Source of the DNA: Podarcis pityusensis
Lineage: Eukaryota
Assembly: GCA_964106645.2 (NCBI GenBank)
Contig: OZ067050.1
DNA length: 64,000 nt
Direction: 5' to 3' (one strand)
Shown: positions 50,601 through 56,600 of the stretch, in pieces
How the letters are laid out: every line of letters begins with the position of its first letter
Numbering within the stretch: position 1 is the first letter of the stretch
Made by a program: the position numbers

Positions 50601-53600
50601 TATACAAAGTTTTCATAATATAATCTCTTTATTTACAAATGTACAAGTTGAATGGGTATTACAGCAGCATATAAACAAGCATATAGGTAGGCAATACTAC
50701 TAATACTCTTAATTATATGCCACCCATCTGACTGGGTTGCCCCAGCCGCTCTGGGTGACTTTCCAGCAAAACATTGCTAGACCCACAGCAACATCAATTC
50801 TAGACCTCCAAATCATCTCCTTGGTGACTCTGCTAGTCAAAGATCAAACTGCTCCTTACATCTCTTCTGCATCACTCTCTCTCTCCATTGGATATGACTT
50901 GTCAAGAGACAGTCCATCCATGGTGGCTGGAAAGAGCACAAAGAGCAGCGTTAACTGCTCATCAATGTCCACTGTCACATCAGCAGACTTTGTGGTCACC
51001 ATGATTGACAACCATACAGAGGTCTTGTAAATCTGACCATTGTTGCTGGCCCCTCATTCCCAATCTAGTCACACATAATTTTAGTCCACCCCCATTTCGT
51101 CTAATTCAGGGTGAGTGATAGACACCAAGGTTTCGTTGCCTTTTAGATGTAAGTCTATTTGGTTCCTTTCCATTCAATGAAGTGGCCAGTTATTGACCCA
51201 GGATGGACTAAAATCAAGTCTTTTTAATCTCTGATCCAGAATCGGGACTAGAGAGTGACCCTCCTAAGATGAAAATCACATATGTGGGAGAGGAATGATT
51301 CCCTAAAGTTTCTCCTGCCCTGCCGACAGCTTGCTCTGTTTTCTGAGGATAACAGTCTTTTTCTCTGTTTCCCTAGCTTGACTGTGCTTTCTCTTTTCCC
51401 TCAGGAACAATGAGGTGACTTGGTTTGGTGATGTGCATGGTGTCTTTGGTCCTTCAATGGCTAAGGCTAGGTTTGGGATTGGTGCCACCCCTCCCTGCTT
51501 CACACATATGGCCTAGATTATTAGCAGCGCCGGCTGGTGCCAAGAAGATCTCTGCTAGGCCGAACACAGCTCTGGGCCTCTGGGAGCAACCAAGGCACTT
51601 TGATATAATTCATCACCTCCTTGGCTGGGCTACGCTGAGACGCGTCGGGCATCAACAGTCCCCGCAGCATCTCCAATGCCTGGGGAGTAAAACGCCCCCA
51701 ATGGGGTGGGCGCGGGGAAAAGCGGGGGCTGCGATGCCAGCAGACAAATTTGCGGTAGTACCGGTCAGCAGGTACAGCTGTGAGCCAGGGGAAGTAGCCG
51801 GTTAGCACGCAGAAGAGCAGCACTCCCAGGGACCATGTGTCAAGGCTGGGCTGGGCCTCCAAACGAGCTTTGGGGCCCAGCGTGCTCAACTCGGGGGCCG
51901 TGTATGGTAGGCTCTCTGGCAAAGCCTCAATGGCCCGGCCTCGCGGGCAGCTCAGCCCAAAGTCGGTCAGCTTGATGCGGCGGCACTCCGGGTCACACAG
52001 CAGCACATTCTCTGGTTTGACATCGCGATGCACCAGCCCCTTCGTTTCCATGTACTCAAGGGCACTGGCAAGCTGCAGGGCGCAGCGCTTGACCCGCTGC
52101 TCAGGCACACCAACCTGGAGGAAGTAAAGGAGAGATGAAAGTCACATGTGCAGCCACACAAATTCCCTGAAGGTAGAAACATCTCCAGGCTCCATTCCTC
52201 AGTTCTCTGATAGGGCTAGGCGCTAACTGCTTTTCAACATCATGATATATCACCAGCTAAATATTGTGATATACCAATATATCACAATGTCTGGAATAAG
52301 GATGAAACTATGTAGAGATAAACAGTGGGCTGGGGGATACCTGGTTTTCAACACTGTAATATATCACAGTGTCTGAAATATATGTAGAGGCATTGGCTGG
52401 CATCATGGGTTTTCCCACATCGTGATTTTTGCATAGCACACAAACACACATCATGATTCACAATATATTTTCATGTCAAAAATTATGAAACTAATATCAT
52501 GATATGGACTTCATTCTCTGGTGTGCTCAAGCAGGGATAGATTATATTGTTGGAAGTCTTAGGGCAGCTATATGCTTGGGTCCTCTTTCGAGGTTCATGA
52601 TTGATCCCCTTTGCATTAACAACTTCCATTCAGTTCAGTTGCCTAAGTCAAGATGAGTGGATGCACTCTTATCTAGTCTTTTTAAGCACTTGCTCTCAGG
52701 CAGCTTTCCAGAACTTGAAAAGGAGCCAGTGAGGAATAAAATAGTGCATATGCACTTGTAAGGCTGGCTGTATCTTGTGTTTCTGTGATCATGTGTTGTA
52801 AGTACAGTGGTACCTCGGGTTACATACGCTTCAGGTTATAGACTCCGCTAACCCAGAAATAGTGCTTCAGGTTAAGAACTTTGCTTCAGGATGAGAACAG
52901 AAATCGCGCTCCGGCGGCACAGCAGCAGGAGGAGGCCCCATTAGCTAAAGTGGTGCTTCAGGTTAAGAACAGCTTCAGGTTAAGTACGGACCTCCGGAAC
53001 GAATTAAGTACTTAACCCGAGGTGCCACTGTATTGCATTTGATATCACATAAAAAAGACAGCATGCAGGGAAGCTTTTAAAATACATTTCTAATTTCTCA
53101 GGCATGAACAGTAGTTAGAAAGCTCAACTATACCTTTGACTAAAAAGCCCAATTGATTAAAGAAGCAGAAGACTTTTTAAAAATGCAAAAAATACAAGTG
53201 TTTATAAAAACTTCATATGGTGAGTACCATCTTCAAAGAGGCATTGTCTCTTCTCAGGCAGGAGGAATGCCTCTTCTTAAAAGATGTTTTCTGCTGAAAA
53301 CTAAAGGTAGCATGCATCTCGCTTCAGAAATATTGTTTTGACCTATATGCAGATTTAACCAACAGAGTAATCAGCTGCAACTCATAGGCAATCTTATTAC
53401 TACAGGTGGTCCTGGCAGTGAAAACCAGCCTGGTACTATTCCATGATTTGAAATGACGTGGGAGTAGGGGGGAAAGGGGCCTACAAGCAAAGAAACTCCA
53501 TTCTCTCACATCTTTCTCCTCCACCATAACTTTTCGAAAAGCATGGAATGGGGTGGGAAGCTGCCAACTACAGAAGGCATGTGGTCTGTGTCCATGCCTG

Positions 53601-56600
53601 GTGGGTTTGTTACCTGTGGAACCATGAGCGAGAAGAGGTCACTGGCCAAAGCCAACTCCTGTGCAAAGACATAGTGTTTGGGGGTCTGGAAAGCAATCCC
53701 AAGGGCAGTGGCAATGCAGGGATGGGCCCCCAAAGTCAGCGCAATGCAGTATTCATTCACGAAATCTAGCAATTCTGTAGCCTTCTTGTGTACAAATTTC
53801 AGTGCCATGGGTGTTCCTGCAAGAGAGAAGAGAAGTGGTTCCTCCAGATGACCAATTTATTAAACATTCATCCTGATTTGCTGACACAAAGCTTACACGG
53901 AGGTTAGACTATGTCTGATTTTTACTTATTAAGCATTTGTGCTGATTTGTTTGCAGGGCGGTTATAGGACAATGAGCAATTATTCTGCATTCATCTTGAT
54001 TTGCTTACGGAGTCCTTATCAGCCTCCCCATTAATTGTTCTTTTATCCTACACTCTCCAATGTTCTTCCCTGCCACTTTCATAGTGGGAAAAAGTCAGTT
54101 TCTTATTTAAAGTGGATTTATTGTGCTAGGGCAACAGAGTGCTTCAGTCCACCTAAATGTGCCAAACTAAATTTATGAAATGTGCTTGGATCCCTCCCAC
54201 AAAACAATGGCAACCGGGAGGCAGCCAAGAGACCCTTGGCCCCTGAAAGAGAGGAGAAAATATAAAGGACTTGAGTGCCCCCCAAGGACATTCCACATCA
54301 AACAAGCTAGTCTCACATTTTGCTCTTGTGGTGCAAAAGCGAACACAATTCTTTTCAGCAAAACAACAACATGCTATCAATTTAAATGATGCTGCTTTAG
54401 ATCCAGTATAACTTATTTCAACCAGACAGTTCAACCATGACTTCATTTCCCATTGATTTTAGAAGGATCTACAGAGAAATCCTATATATGTCTACTCAGT
54501 ACCAGAAATAAATCCAAATGATGTAAGCAAGTACAGGATTAAAGTATAATTGCAACTACATAGATAGGGTCCATCCCAATACTTGAAAATCACCCTTGAA
54601 ACAATAATGGAGAGAATAATTCAAAGATTATAGGAGACTACGTTCACCATTCTGCAGGTATAACAACATCCCCTATTTTCTCTGAAAATGCAAGTGGCAC
54701 GTACATTTCCTTGTGTAGACTAGCAAAAAAAGAGATGTTGGTATTTCTTCTTTTTCAGGAGACAGACAGATCTACATTTCTTCAGAGTAGAATGCAAGCT
54801 TTCCAGAGCTGGGAACGGATGAGTTCTGTTCTCCTCAGAAAGGATCCTGTTAACTCTCTTTAGATGGACTCTCCACTCTCACCCCAGAAATCTATTCAAC
54901 TGACACTTTCTAACGGCCACTTCACCAACATTCTAGAAGAACCTTCTCGGCCCCTTCAGGTAGAATAACATGGACTGATTTACACACATATCTTACACCT
55001 AAGTTCTCTCATAGTTCAGTGATCTGTTTTGTAGCCTTCTCTGCCTCTCCATCCTCTTGGGTTCTGACCTACCTTGGCGTTGGTGGACTGCCATCAGCAC
55101 ATGCCCATAGGAGCCACTGCCAAGCTCTCGGAGGACAGTGTAACTCGTAGCCACCTCCACCTGGGGCAGGTTCTGAGAAGTCAACAACACCATCTCTTCA
55201 AGTCGTTTTGCGATGTCACCAGAGACGAGCTTCATGGCTGTTCAGGAGGAGCGACAGAAGAGACTTGGGGTGAATGCAAAAAGACCACTGACCAACTGCC
55301 AATGTACCCTTCTGCATGTACACTTTTTTTGTGGGTGCCAGGTGACTAAAATGCATAGCAGGAATTGGGGCAGCGGTCACCCTTCTGCATTGAAGGCAAA
55401 AGGCCCAATGAGAAAGAAATAATTGGAGAGGCATTTTTCCTGTGCCTTCCGAAGTAAACAGTAGATCTAGGAATAGCCATTTCCATGAAACAGACTCTCA
55501 TGAAACTGGACCATTCTGCATAACACAGGGGGAAAGGCCTGCAACGCTATAAAGACTGCACAATTGCCCATTCACCTTGATAGGTTCAGACAGCACAAGG
55601 CAACCGTAATTATGTTATCTCACTACTGCAGATGGTCCCTTCCTTTCTATAGAAAGGGGGGTCATTTGTTACCCAACATGATGTTTTCCCTCCCCACACT
55701 TCCTTGCTCCTGAAACAGCATGTATTGCCATGTGAGAGCAATGATTCCGTTTTTTGGCATGGAATCAGAAATGATGACACCAGAGTGTTTACATAACCAG
55801 ACACCCCAGGTATTGGGCTTTGCATCAGCTGCCTCTGATGGACAGCCAGATGCTGCCCAACTCTGGTGGAGCAAGACACAAAATGAGACTCAGTGCAGAG
55901 TCCTGTGCCAGATGAGGGATGATTGCAAAAAGGTTTGTGATGCTGGAGTTCTGACCTGGTGAGTGTAAAGAAAGGAGCACTTCTAACAGTGTGCAGAGTG
56001 CTTTTGTTCACAGCAACCACAACCAATGCTTACATATTTGGGATCTGGGGGAAACACTTAGGGGGCAGAGAGTTTGATTAACAGGCAGCTGTGTTTCAGT
56101 CTCAGTACTCCTCACGTTAGACAAAACTGTGAGGACTGGGATGGCGGGGGTGGGGAATAACTTAAGGATGTTTTAGCTACAAACAACACAAATCATTCCT
56201 ATAATCAGGCCTTTTTTTCCCCTTCAGCTGGAACTCACAAGAATTCAGTTCCAACACCTTTCAAGTAGATGCTGTTGCCATTATAAGAGAACAAGGGAGG
56301 CATTTAGGGTGAGTTCCGGCACCTCATTTTCTAGAAAAATAGCGCTGCCTATAAAAAATGCATTTTTCTGCAAGTGGCTCTATTTGGCTTCCTCCCTTGG
56401 TGCAGGGTATAAAGCAAGAGAAAGACACTTAGGTTGCAATCTCATGCATAGGAGTGAGTCTTGAATTCAGTGGAACATGCTTCTGATTACACAGTTAAAG
56501 TCAAATGCACTCCCTAGCCTGTCAGTTTTGCACCTGAATTACAGTTACAGGAATTGCAAAGAGCACTCTAAACCTACTTGGCTTACCTACCTGCCAGGCC

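What the first reader, a model, noticed from the sequence alone, without database searches (positions are those of the whole stretch)
51521..55235. Extra SBK-family kinase upstream of ZNF628 with no clear human one-to-one counterpart
Seen: an intact 319-aa kinase (GSGSYG, ALK, helix-C Glu, HRDVKPEN, DFG, APE) with almost no N- or C-terminal extension. It mixes SBK1-like (ALKFV, YVFAQE, DLF, PQVG, FT..AL.M, AKEV), SBK2-like (LGAH, QLASALEY, KLTDFG..PRG, QP.LD.W, LTGYFPW) and SBK3-like (LGSGSYG, QTP) segments. Known: human SBK2/SBK3 lie beyond SSC5D, SBK1 is on chr16, and ISOC2/C19orf85 occupy this side. Inference: a further SBK paralog kept in reptiles and lost in mammals, functionally uncharacterised.
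Basis: partly seen in the sequence, partly recalled or inferred. Interest (0 to 1): 0.65.

Follow-up and report, generated by a model that had tools for sequence, protein, structure and literature searches.

The report
Extra SBK-family kinase gene in lizard
This is an intact, ordinary-looking protein kinase gene of a lizard that belongs to a fourth branch of the small SBK kinase family, a branch that amphibians, turtles, crocodilians, lizards and at least one bird have but mammals lack.

Summary
On the minus strand, three coding exons (55235-55073, 53816-53614, 52114-51521) with canonical GT-AG introns give 319 codons and every catalytic motif of an active Ser/Thr kinase. I also found a non-coding 5' exon ending at 56619, behind a TATA-like box.

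Searched exon by exon, each piece is closest to lizard proteins: Podarcis muralis at 98, 100 and 96%. Turtles and crocodilians follow at about 70-76%, then amphibians at about 59-66%. True SBK2 and SBK1 reach only 39-50%.

In a tree of named proteins this "clade X" (27 rows) has support 98/99. It stands apart from tetrapod SBK2 (100/99), which holds its own lizard, alligator, turtle and frog copies. Forcing X together with SBK2 is rejected (p-AU 0.0005). No mammal appears among the 44 named X-like database rows.

In the window the gene sits upstream of the ZNF628-like, NAT14-like and SSC5D-like genes. In mammals that slot holds ISOC2 and C19orf85, and SBK2 and SBK3 lie on the other side.

The open point is SBK3: no named tetrapod SBK3 sequence could be obtained, so that comparison rests on indirect evidence.

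Gene models of this clade already exist in public annotation under inconsistent names. I rate it a new member of a known kind, of modest interest.

The parts
56731..56737 (-). TATA-like box (TATAAAA) upstream of the non-coding first exon
   Evidence: Read. Its function is inferred from sequence and position only.
56619..56712 (-). Non-coding 5' exon. The start is only estimated at about 25-30 nt after the TATA-like box. The end is fixed by the donor GCAG|GTAAGT at 56618.
   Evidence: The 39-residue N-terminal extension of Podarcis muralis isoform X1 (P0121) maps here by tblastn, 93% over 28 residues, E = 8e-14. In the window both upstream ATGs (56725, 56711) run into stops. The exon holds a (CAGA)4 run.
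55073..55237 (-). First coding exon: acceptor ...CTGAACAG|CC, ATG at 55235, 54 whole codons plus one base. It carries the N-terminal helix and the Gly-rich loop GSGSYG.
   Evidence: It is 98% identical to P0121 and 96% to P0003 over all 54 residues.
53614..53816 (-). Second coding exon (phase 1 in, phase 0 out): beta3 Lys (ALK), helix-C Glu, hinge region.
   Evidence: It is 100% identical to P0121 over 67 residues. The exon-2 tree places it in squamate X at 98*.
51521..52114 (-). Third coding exon: 197 codons plus TAA. It carries HRDVKPEN, DFG, the activation segment, APE, the C-lobe and a short tail.
   Evidence: Pfam Pkinase E = 7.6e-27. It is 96% identical to P0121.
50628..51228 (-). Stretch of candidate 3' UTR holding two polyadenylation-like hexamers: ATTAAA 292 nt and AATAAA 887 nt after the stop.
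   Evidence: Pattern scan. Usage was not tested.
34453..38076 (-). Context: downstream neighbour, a single-exon 1207-aa C2H2 zinc-finger ORF. It is ZNF628-like by position and build; the name itself was not tested.
   Evidence: Pfam zf-C2H2 1.5e-86 and zf-H2C2_2 1e-101.
26371..26958 (-). Context: GNAT acetyltransferase ORF. NAT14-like by position; the name was not tested.
   Evidence: Pfam Acetyltransf_1 2.3e-16.
12371..19110 (-). Context: three SRCR-domain exons and a Ser/Thr/Pro-rich exon. SSC5D-like by position; the name was not tested.
   Evidence: Pfam SRCR at 7.5e-34, 3.4e-32 and 1.3e-32.

Best explanation
The window comes from a lacertid lizard; I do not take it for human. It carries an intact four-exon gene, one non-coding and three coding exons. 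The gene encodes a 319-residue protein that is essentially a bare kinase domain of the SBK (SH3-domain-binding kinase, NKF1) family.

The gene belongs to a separate paralogue group, here called clade X. Clade X split from SBK2 before amphibians and amniotes parted. It survives in amphibians, squamates, turtles, crocodilians and at least the emu. It is missing from annotated mammalian proteomes.

Shown:
- The gene structure.
- All catalytic and family-invariant residues are present.
- Clade membership.
- Separation from SBK1 and SBK2.
- The position upstream of the ZNF628-like, NAT14-like and SSC5D-like block.

Inferred:
- It is a catalytically active Ser/Thr kinase. An N-terminal helix packs on the N-lobe.
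- It has no long regulatory tail, so control is probably mainly by expression, as proposed for the tissue-restricted SBK2 and SBK3.
- Its activation segment carries clade-specific residues: a Cys three residues after DFG where SBK1 and SBK2 have Arg, and Pro-Glu where they have Gly. These suggest its own substrate choice or regulation.

The substrate and the tissue are unknown.
For: Gene model.
- Canonical splice sites at all three introns and an open frame of 319 codons.
- Gap-free fit of the three pieces to the 319-aa Salvator protein.

Conservation.
- 45 of 46 residues invariant across 41 SBK-family proteins are present in the exon pieces. The 46th is the split Gly codon.
- 36 of 37 nearly invariant residues are present.

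Homology, exon 3.
- Podarcis muralis 96%, other squamates 80-88%, turtles 72-74%, alligators 67%, emu 61%, amphibians 54-62%.
- Then a step down to SBK2 of turtle, bird, alligator and mammal at 47-52% and fish 'SBK1' at about 48%.
- Exons 1 and 2 give the same order.
- Among 1.84 billion 50%-cluster representatives only two exceed 52% identity: P0004 (gecko Paroedura picta) at 85% and the emu protein P0126 at 61%.

Tree of named proteins, 84 rows by 178 columns of the exon-3 region, IQ-TREE PMSF.
- X, 27 rows: 98/99.
- Sauropsid X: 99/97.
- Squamate X: 97/95.
- Window plus P. muralis: 100/94.
- Tetrapod SBK2: 100/99. It includes Podarcis raffonei, Pogona, Sphenodon, Alligator mississippiensis, turtles, birds, mammals and Ascaphus. 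Alligator mississippiensis and Ascaphus have one gene in each clade, as do the genus Podarcis (two species) and the turtles (different species).
- The bootstrap had not fully settled (correlation 0.989).

Further tests.
- AU test: sauropsid X plus tetrapod SBK2 as one clade is 62.3 log-likelihood units worse, p = 0.000485.
- The exon-2 tree agrees, with squamate X at 98* and SBK2 apart at 95*.
- Nine positions are conserved in at least 21 of 23 X proteins and absent from all 16 SBK2, SBK1 and fish-short proteins compared. The window has 9 of 9.

Fold.
- AlphaFold2 model of the public ortholog P0003: pLDDT 84.4, pTM 0.83, with helix 8-21 ahead of a bilobal kinase.
- Nearest solved folds are CHK1 kinase domains, TM 0.85 normalised to the target, 27% identity.

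Synteny. The mammalian order ISOC2, C19orf85, ZNF628, NAT14, SSC5D, SBK2, SBK3 appears in a table of PMC7341496 and in the text of PMC9339297 (passages only).
Against: - No tetrapod protein named SBK3 appeared in any of the 360 rows listed, so the separation from SBK3 is not shown with named sequences.
- Deep nodes joining X, SBK2, the fish-short clade and the amphibian expansion are weak (44/83), so the age of X beyond tetrapods is open.
- 'Absent from mammals' rests on annotated proteins found by a word-indexed search, not on mammalian genome sequence.
- No expression data for this lizard were available.
- Kinase activity is inferred from residues only.
- The neighbours' gene names rest on domain content and order, not on a homology search.
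Confidence: 0.75

Rival explanations
1. Clade X is simply the non-mammalian orthologue of mammalian SBK3. Mammalian SBK3 evolved fast and one of the two lineages moved the gene across the ZNF628-NAT14-SSC5D block. On this reading nothing was lost in mammals and there is no fourth paralogue.
For: - No named tetrapod SBK3 was available to exclude this.
- SBK2 and SBK3 are described as each other's closest relatives (PMC12217965, introduction passage). X is in the same superclade as SBK2, 99* in the exon-2 tree.
- The emu X protein shows that GC-rich, fast-evolving members exist (branch 0.52, odd composition).
Against: - Public names of X proteins are SBK1(-like) or SBK2(-like), never SBK3. This suggests that their best curated match is not SBK3.
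- Table 5 of a painted-turtle transcriptome paper lists 'SgK110-like' (SgK110 is SBK3) beside 'SBK2-like' (PMC5352168, passages). Which gene each name denotes I could not see, because supplements are closed.
- In the exploratory FastTree with unnamed representatives, the GC-rich groups that are candidates for amniote SBK3 lie outside the X plus SBK2 clade, while the equally GC-rich emu protein stays inside X.
- X lies on the opposite side of the three-gene block from mammalian SBK2-SBK3 and in the other orientation relative to it.
Confidence: 0.13
2. It is SBK2 itself, or a recent lizard-specific copy of SBK2, moved by a local rearrangement.
For: Several public records call members of the clade 'SBK2-like', and one calls it 'SBK2' (Alligator mississippiensis P0124). 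SBK2 is the nearest named family by identity at 46-52%.
Against: - The AU test rejects the joint clade, p = 0.000485.
- The genus Podarcis, Alligator mississippiensis, the turtles and Ascaphus each have a member in both clades.
- X orthologues in amphibians are 54-62% identical, above any SBK2.
Confidence: 0.02
3. The open frame is a recently dead or non-functional copy (unitary pseudogene or pseudokinase) that merely looks intact.
For: No expression evidence for this species. Upstream ATGs in the 5' exon. The clade was lost in mammals and perhaps in most birds.
Against: - No stop or frameshift, and canonical splice sites.
- 45 of 46 invariant and 36 of 37 nearly invariant family residues, and all catalytic motifs.
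- 96-100% protein identity per exon to another lacertid genus, and short branches throughout squamate X.
- The 5' exon is part of a public P. muralis transcript model.
Confidence: 0.05

Closest known systems
[quoted passage not shown]
   Same: - Same family and superclade (exon-2 tree 99* for X plus SBK2 plus the fish-short clade against SBK1).
- Same catalytic motifs.
- 46-52% identity per exon.
- Short protein without a long tail.
   Different: - Separate clade, and the joint clade is rejected by the AU test.
- SBK2 proteins carry about 30-55 more N-terminal residues before the exon-3 homology.
- Nine X-only positions, three of them in the activation segment.
- In mammals SBK2 lies beyond SSC5D, whereas X lies upstream of the ZNF628-like gene.
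SBK1 (SH3 domain binding kinase 1)
   Same: Family-invariant residues, and a conserved N-terminal helix motif ahead of the Gly-rich loop. Many X records are named 'SBK1-like'.
   Different: - Only 39-47% identity.
- SBK1 of mammals, birds, amphibians, coelacanth, lungfish, sharks and ray-finned fishes forms its own group far from X.
- Most complete SBK1 rows are about 400-445 residues against 319 here.
SBK3 (SgK110)
   Same: [quoted passage not shown]
   Different: Not compared directly, because no named tetrapod SBK3 sequence was obtained. The only protein so named, Polypterus P0227, is nearest the fish-short clade at 43-47% and is no anchor. The indirect evidence against orthology is given under the rival explanations.
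Amphibian 'SBK1-like' expansion (for example Pleurodeles P0181, Rhinoderma P0162, Dendrobates P0168)
   Same: Nearest outside group to X. It is sister in the exon-3 tree (weak, 44/83) and nests inside amphibian X in the exon-2 tree (81-90).
   Different: Long branches, only 36-47% identity to the window's exons, longer proteins of 363-396 aa, and amphibian only.
CHK1 and CaMK-type kinase domains (solved structures)
   Same: - Nearest solved folds to the model of the public orthologue: CHK1 TM 0.85 and 27% identity, also Drosophila CaMKII.
- Nearest by sequence in the PDB: CHK2 at 1.9e-18 and CHK1 at 5e-16.
   Different: Only about 27% identity. They are not family members. No SBK-family structure is in the PDB copy searched.

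Membership tests
Eukaryotic protein kinase superfamily (Pfam PF00069) | Profile match above the curated cut-off | tested here: met
   Exon 3: 94.8 bits against a cut-off of 31.7, E = 7.6e-27. Exons 1 and 2 alone are too short and gave no match.
Eukaryotic protein kinase superfamily (Pfam PF00069) | Catalytic residues: GxGxxG, beta3 Lys, helix-C Glu, HRDxKxxN, DFG, APE | tested here: met
   GSGSYG, ALK, Glu at residue 21 of the exon-2 piece, HRDVKPEN, DFG and APE.
SBK / NKF1 kinase family | Nearest relatives are SBK proteins, and the gene falls inside the vertebrate SBK radiation against invertebrate outgroups | tested here: met
   Named rows are almost all SBK-family; the exceptions are a few fused or S6-kinase-named models. 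Tree. 45 of 46 family-invariant residues plus the split Gly codon.
SBK2 orthologue group | Groups with tetrapod SBK2 in a tree | tested here: not met
   X at 98/99 and tetrapod SBK2 at 100/99 are separate. The joint clade is rejected, p-AU 0.000485.
SBK2 orthologue group | Only copy of its kind in the genome or lineage | tested here: not met
   Podarcis raffonei, Pogona and Sphenodon have their own SBK2. For the window's own genome this could not be checked: there is no second kinase in the 64 kb.
SBK1 orthologue group | Groups with SBK1, and has a long C-terminal tail | tested here: not met
   SBK1 rows form groups far from X. The protein has 319 residues with a roughly 20-residue tail, against about 400-445 residues for most complete SBK1 rows.
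SBK3 (SgK110) orthologue group | Groups with mammalian SBK3 in a tree | not testable with these tools
   No named tetrapod SBK3 in 360 listed rows.
SBK3 (SgK110) orthologue group | Lies next to SBK2, beyond SSC5D | tested here: not met
   The gene lies on the ZNF628-like side, about 13.4 kb upstream of that ORF. Rearrangement cannot be excluded.
Clade X (unnamed tetrapod SBK paralogue; public names SBK1-like or SBK2-like) | Tree membership | tested here: met
   Exon 3: inside squamate X at 97/95 and X at 98/99. Exon 2: squamate X at 98*. Exon 1: the best 39 BLAST hits are X-group proteins, some not in the trees.
Clade X (unnamed tetrapod SBK paralogue; public names SBK1-like or SBK2-like) | Nine clade-specific residues: P24, S42, A49, Q52, C178, P188, E189, L201, H249 (Salvator numbering) | tested here: met
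   9 of 9 present. The signature was derived here from 23 X and 16 non-X proteins, so it is provisional.

The most novel reading that the evidence does not exclude
Clade X is a true fourth vertebrate SBK subfamily, in effect an 'SBK4', at least as old as tetrapods.
- It has its own regulatory logic: a conserved Cys and a Pro-Glu in the activation segment where all other SBKs have Arg and Gly.
- It is the parent of the large amphibian 'SBK1-like' expansions.
- Its mammalian slot between ISOC2 and ZNF628, now annotated as the uncharacterised C19orf85, is the decayed or remodelled remnant of the same gene.
Probability: 0.08. Interest if true: 0.55.

Novelty: new member of a known kind. Interest (0 to 1): 0.35.

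Why it matters
The SBK kinases are among the least studied ('dark') kinases, and the literature I could search treats the family as SBK1, SBK2 and SBK3 only.

Recognising a fourth, tetrapod-wide branch that mammals lack would do three things:
- It would tidy an inconsistent public nomenclature, in which the same orthologue is called SBK1, SBK1-like, SBK2 or SBK2-like.
- It would prevent false orthology transfer of mammalian SBK1 or SBK2 function to frog and reptile genes.
- It would give a clean case of kinase loss in mammals, with a defined syntenic slot.

It is not a new kind of protein and nothing in it is mechanistically strange.

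Tried and rejected
1. Name look-up of 20 unnamed cluster representatives. 
2. ESM Atlas search with exon 3. It returned only generic 'protein kinase' clusters and no subfamily or taxon information.
3. PDB by sequence. There is no SBK-family structure; the best hit is CHK2 at 1.9e-18.
4. Polypterus 'SBK3' (P0227) as an SBK3 anchor. I rejected it: its nearest relatives are the fish-short clade at 43-47%, and in the careful tree it joins the outgroup by long-branch attraction.
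5. Third homology search, spent on wallaby SBK1 (P0211). It gave good SBK1 sampling but no SBK3.
6. Exploratory FastTree with 81 unnamed 50%-cluster representatives.
   - It was used only as a lead.
   - The unnamed P0243 came out as sister of X at support 81. Its AT-type amino-acid make-up shows that it is not mammalian.
   - The final trees use named proteins only.
7. Six-frame Pfam scan of the flanks. I replaced it with 48 ORFs of at least 75 aa: 29 of 29 between the ZNF gene and the kinase, and 19 of 21 upstream (the two that cross the N run were left out). None matched a Pfam family. Small exons, such as those of an ISOC2-like gene, would be missed by this.
8. A second kinase copy in the window. 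There is none: tblastn gave only self-hits below E = 0.1.
9. Literature. I found no paper describing a fourth SBK paralogue in searches for SBK1/SBK2/SBK3, NKF1 plus SBK, SBK1-like/SBK2-like/LOC100127848, and SgK110/SBK3-like. Subscription papers, such as the 2022 Sbk2 paper cited, were not seen.
10. No complex prediction was run, because no binding claim is made.
11. The collections genome contigs (bacteria and archaea only), viral contigs and metagenome contigs were not used. The last two are closed.

Full report
**What is there**

On the minus strand of the window lie three open stretches that together make a kinase. Reading the boundaries gives these coding exons:
- 55235-55073, with the ATG at 55235 and the donor CAAG|GTAGGT.
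- 53816-53614, with the acceptor TTGCAG| and the donor ACAG|GTAACA.
- 52114-51521, with the acceptor CTCCAG| and the stop TAA at 51523-51521.

The lengths are 163, 203 and 594 nt. One codon is split between the first two exons, G|GA for Gly.

The three coding pieces (54, 67 and 197 residues) were never joined, searched or folded as one. Where a whole protein was needed I used a public orthologue instead.

**Is it real?**

- Pfam Pkinase matches exon 3 at E = 7.6e-27. The two short N-lobe pieces alone give nothing.
- The three pieces align without gaps to residues 1-54, 56-122 and 123-319 of the 319-residue protein of Salvator merianae (P0003). They align to 40-93, 95-161 and 162-358 of Podarcis muralis 'SBK2-like isoform X1' (P0121), at 98, 100 and 96% identity.
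- Of 46 residues invariant in an alignment of 41 named SBK-family proteins, the window's pieces have 45. The 46th is the split Gly codon. Of 37 nearly invariant residues it has 36.
- There is one N run at 60057-60200, outside the gene, and no second kinase copy in the 64 kb.

**A fourth, non-coding exon**

The 39-residue N-terminal extension of the P. muralis isoform maps to 56725-56617. There the window has three features:
- a TATA-like box at 56737-56731;
- a (CAGA)4 run;
- a perfect donor GCAG|GTAAGT, so the exon ends at 56619.

The first coding exon is preceded by a strong acceptor, CTCCTCCTGAACAG|CC ATG.

In the window both upstream ATGs (56725, 56711) end in stops. The protein therefore starts at 55235, as in Salvator, Rhineura and Tiliqua. 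The longer Podarcis isoform is probably an effect of repeat length on an upstream ATG. That is my inference.

Polyadenylation-like hexamers lie 292 and 887 nt after the stop.

**Whose genome**

The best matches are lacertid. P. muralis is at 96-100% but not identical, then other squamates. I take the window for a lacertid lizard, not for human.

**Neighbours**

All are on the same strand, in the gene's direction of transcription.
- A single-exon 1207-residue C2H2 zinc-finger ORF at 38076-34453.
- A GNAT acetyltransferase ORF at 26958-26371.
- Three SRCR exons plus a Ser/Thr/Pro-rich exon at 19110-12371.
- An LTR-retrotransposon gag-pol frame at 2864-3.

Domain content and order fit ZNF628, NAT14 and SSC5D. 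I did not test the names by homology.

Two papers give the mammalian order as ISOC2, C19orf85, ZNF628, NAT14, SSC5D, SBK2, SBK3, ZNF579. These are a table for horse in PMC7341496 and text for wolverine in PMC9339297 (passages only). The lizard kinase therefore sits on the ISOC2/C19orf85 side, opposite to mammalian SBK2 and SBK3.

Forty-eight ORFs of at least 75 residues around the kinase gave no Pfam match:
- 29 of 29 between the ZNF gene and the kinase;
- 19 of 21 upstream, with the two crossing the N run left out.

Small exons would escape this scan.

**Relatives**

With exon 3 as query, the hits fall in steps:
- squamates 80-96%
- turtles 72-74%
- alligators 67%
- emu 61%
- amphibians 54-62%
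- lungfish 53%

Only then come proteins that are SBK2 by name and by tree: turtle, alligator, bird, tuatara, Podarcis raffonei, Pogona and mammals at 47-52%. A short fish 'SBK1' group is at about 48%.

I count 44 named rows in the high tier:
- 9 squamates
- 5 turtles
- 2 alligators
- 1 bird
- 2 caecilians
- 1 salamander
- 24 frogs

None is a mammal. Their public names are SBK1, SBK1-like, SBK2 or SBK2-like.

Against 1.84 billion 50%-identity representatives, only two exceed 52% identity: the gecko Paroedura picta protein P0004 and the emu protein P0126.

Exons 1 and 2 give the same ranking. Median identities for exons 1, 2 and 3 are:

| Group | Exon 1 | Exon 2 | Exon 3 |
|---|---|---|---|
| Squamate X | 89% | 90% | 84% |
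| Turtle, crocodilian and bird X | 76% | 71% | 70% |
| Amphibian X | 66% | 63% | 59% |
| SBK2 | 46% | 46% | 50% |
| SBK1 | 39% | 46% | 47% |

**Trees**

A third search with wallaby SBK1 supplied named SBK1 of mammals, birds, amphibians, coelacanth, lungfish, sharks and ray-finned fishes.

The careful tree covers 84 named rows by 178 columns of the exon-3 region, IQ-TREE LG+C20 PMSF, with the bootstrap nearly settled at correlation 0.989. It gives:
- Clade X, 27 rows: 98/99.
- Sauropsid X: 99/97.
- Squamate X: 97/95.
- Window plus P. muralis: 100/94.
- Tetrapod SBK2: 100/99. Lungfish (97/83) and coelacanth (99/90) join at its base.
- The fish-short clade: 100/99.
- An amphibian 'SBK1-like' expansion: 100/96.
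- SBK1 is elsewhere.

Within X the order follows the species tree. The nodes that join X, the amphibian expansion, SBK2 and the fish clade are weak (44/83).

Alligator mississippiensis and Ascaphus have one gene in X and another in SBK2, and so do the genus Podarcis (two species) and the turtles (different species).

Holding sauropsid X (16 rows) with tetrapod SBK2 (15 rows) as one clade costs 62.3 log-likelihood units, p-AU 0.000485.

A quick tree on the 67 columns of exon 2 agrees where it has power:
- squamate X 98*;
- sauropsid X 95*;
- SBK2 plus lungfish 95*, apart from X;
- the whole X, SBK2 and fish-short set 99* against SBK1.

It also nests the amphibian expansion inside amphibian X (81-90). 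This suggests that those genes are amphibian duplicates of X.

**SBK3, the open point**

None of the 360 rows listed carries the name SBK3 for a tetrapod. The one 'SBK3' (Polypterus, P0227) is nearest the fish-short clade and is a long branch.

The indirect evidence is as follows.
- The gene's position relative to the three-gene block.
- Public names of X never point to SBK3.
- Table 5 of a painted-turtle paper lists both 'SBK2-like' and 'SgK110-like' kinases (PMC5352168, passages). The supplements that might identify them are closed.
- In an exploratory FastTree with unnamed representatives, no representative other than X's own two falls in X.
  - The unnamed sister P0243 has an amphibian- or fish-like amino-acid make-up, not a mammalian one.
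  - The strongly GC-type groups that could be amniote SBK3 lie outside the X plus SBK2 clade, whereas the equally GC-rich emu protein stays in X.

I give the rival 'X is the orthologue of mammalian SBK3' about 13%.

**How it most likely works**

Shown: a complete catalytic core.

AlphaFold2 on the public orthologue P0003, with 41 aligned family members, gives a confident bilobal kinase with pLDDT 84.4 and pTM 0.83. A helix at residues 8-21 stands ahead of the N-lobe, and only residues 1-5 and 303-319 are disordered. The nearest solved folds are CHK1 kinase domains, TM 0.85 normalised to the target at 27% identity, and Drosophila CaMKII. By sequence the PDB holds no SBK member.

Nine positions are conserved in at least 21 of 23 X proteins and absent from all 16 SBK2, SBK1 and fish-short proteins compared. 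The window has all nine. Three lie in the activation segment:
- Cys three residues after DFG, where the others have Arg;
- Pro-Glu, where the others have Gly.

One lies in the Gly-rich loop.

Inferred:
- It is an active Ser/Thr kinase. The HRDxKxxN form is typical of Ser/Thr kinases; that is established knowledge.
- It has no regulatory tail, so it is controlled mainly by when and where it is transcribed.
- Its activation segment is tuned differently from SBK1 and SBK2.

Tissue and substrates are unknown. The heart and muscle roles of SBK2 and SBK3 (PMC12217965, introduction passage) are only an analogy.

**Novelty**

The kind, an SBK-family kinase, is known, and predicted orthologues are already in public records. 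What seems not to be in print is that they form a fourth, tetrapod-wide branch missing from mammals.

Four full-text searches found no such statement, and one paper's introduction states that the family comprises SBK1-3. Subscription papers and supplements were not visible.

I rate it a new member of a known kind, of modest interest.

Noticed in passing
window 3-2864 (-): One uninterrupted 954-residue frame that runs off the window's start. It holds a gag-type zinc knuckle, an aspartyl protease, reverse transcriptase and RNase H domains. This is an LTR retrotransposon (Ty3/gypsy-like) just beyond the SRCR gene, in the place where mammals would have SBK2.
   Followed up: partly
window 56619-56740 (-): The kinase's non-coding first exon holds a (CAGA)4 run and two upstream ATGs that both terminate. 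The second upstream frame ends overlapping the main ATG. The 39-residue N-terminal extension of the public Podarcis muralis 'isoform X1' starts at the homologous upstream ATG, only 12 nt after the TATA-like box, and is probably an annotation effect.
   Followed up: yes
window 34453-38076 (-): The ZNF628-like ORF is a single 1207-residue exon. It has two blocks of C2H2 fingers followed by a long Gln/Pro-rich tail of repeated 'TVQIQ'-type units. This coincides with the GC-rich peak of the window, 0.55-0.60 at 34-38 kb.
   Followed up: partly
window 12371-13519 (-): A 382-residue Ser/Thr/Pro/Glu-rich open exon without any Pfam match lies next to the three SRCR exons. It looks like a mucin-like tail of the SSC5D-like gene.
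   Followed up: no
window 60057-60200: A run of 144 N, the only one in the window. It was left untouched, and two ORFs crossing it were not analysed.
   Followed up: no
public proteins P0123 and P0138: Frog models named 'ribosomal protein S6 kinase alpha-2-like' and 'alpha-6-like' (714 and 635 aa) match the SBK query strongly. They look like neighbouring SBK-like genes fused by the annotation, and they hint at tandem arrays in frogs.
   Followed up: no
public proteins of clade X and P0227: Naming is inconsistent: the same orthologue is SBK1, SBK1-like, SBK2 or SBK2-like in different species. Alligator mississippiensis has two different genes both called SBK2 (P0049, P0124). The Polypterus 'SBK3' is nearest the fish-short clade.
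   Followed up: partly
public protein P0126 (emu): This is the only bird in clade X among the listed rows. It has a long branch (0.52) and an extreme GC-type amino-acid make-up (GARP 0.44, FYMINK 0.09). Either most birds have lost the gene or it hides in poorly assembled GC-rich regions.
   Followed up: partly
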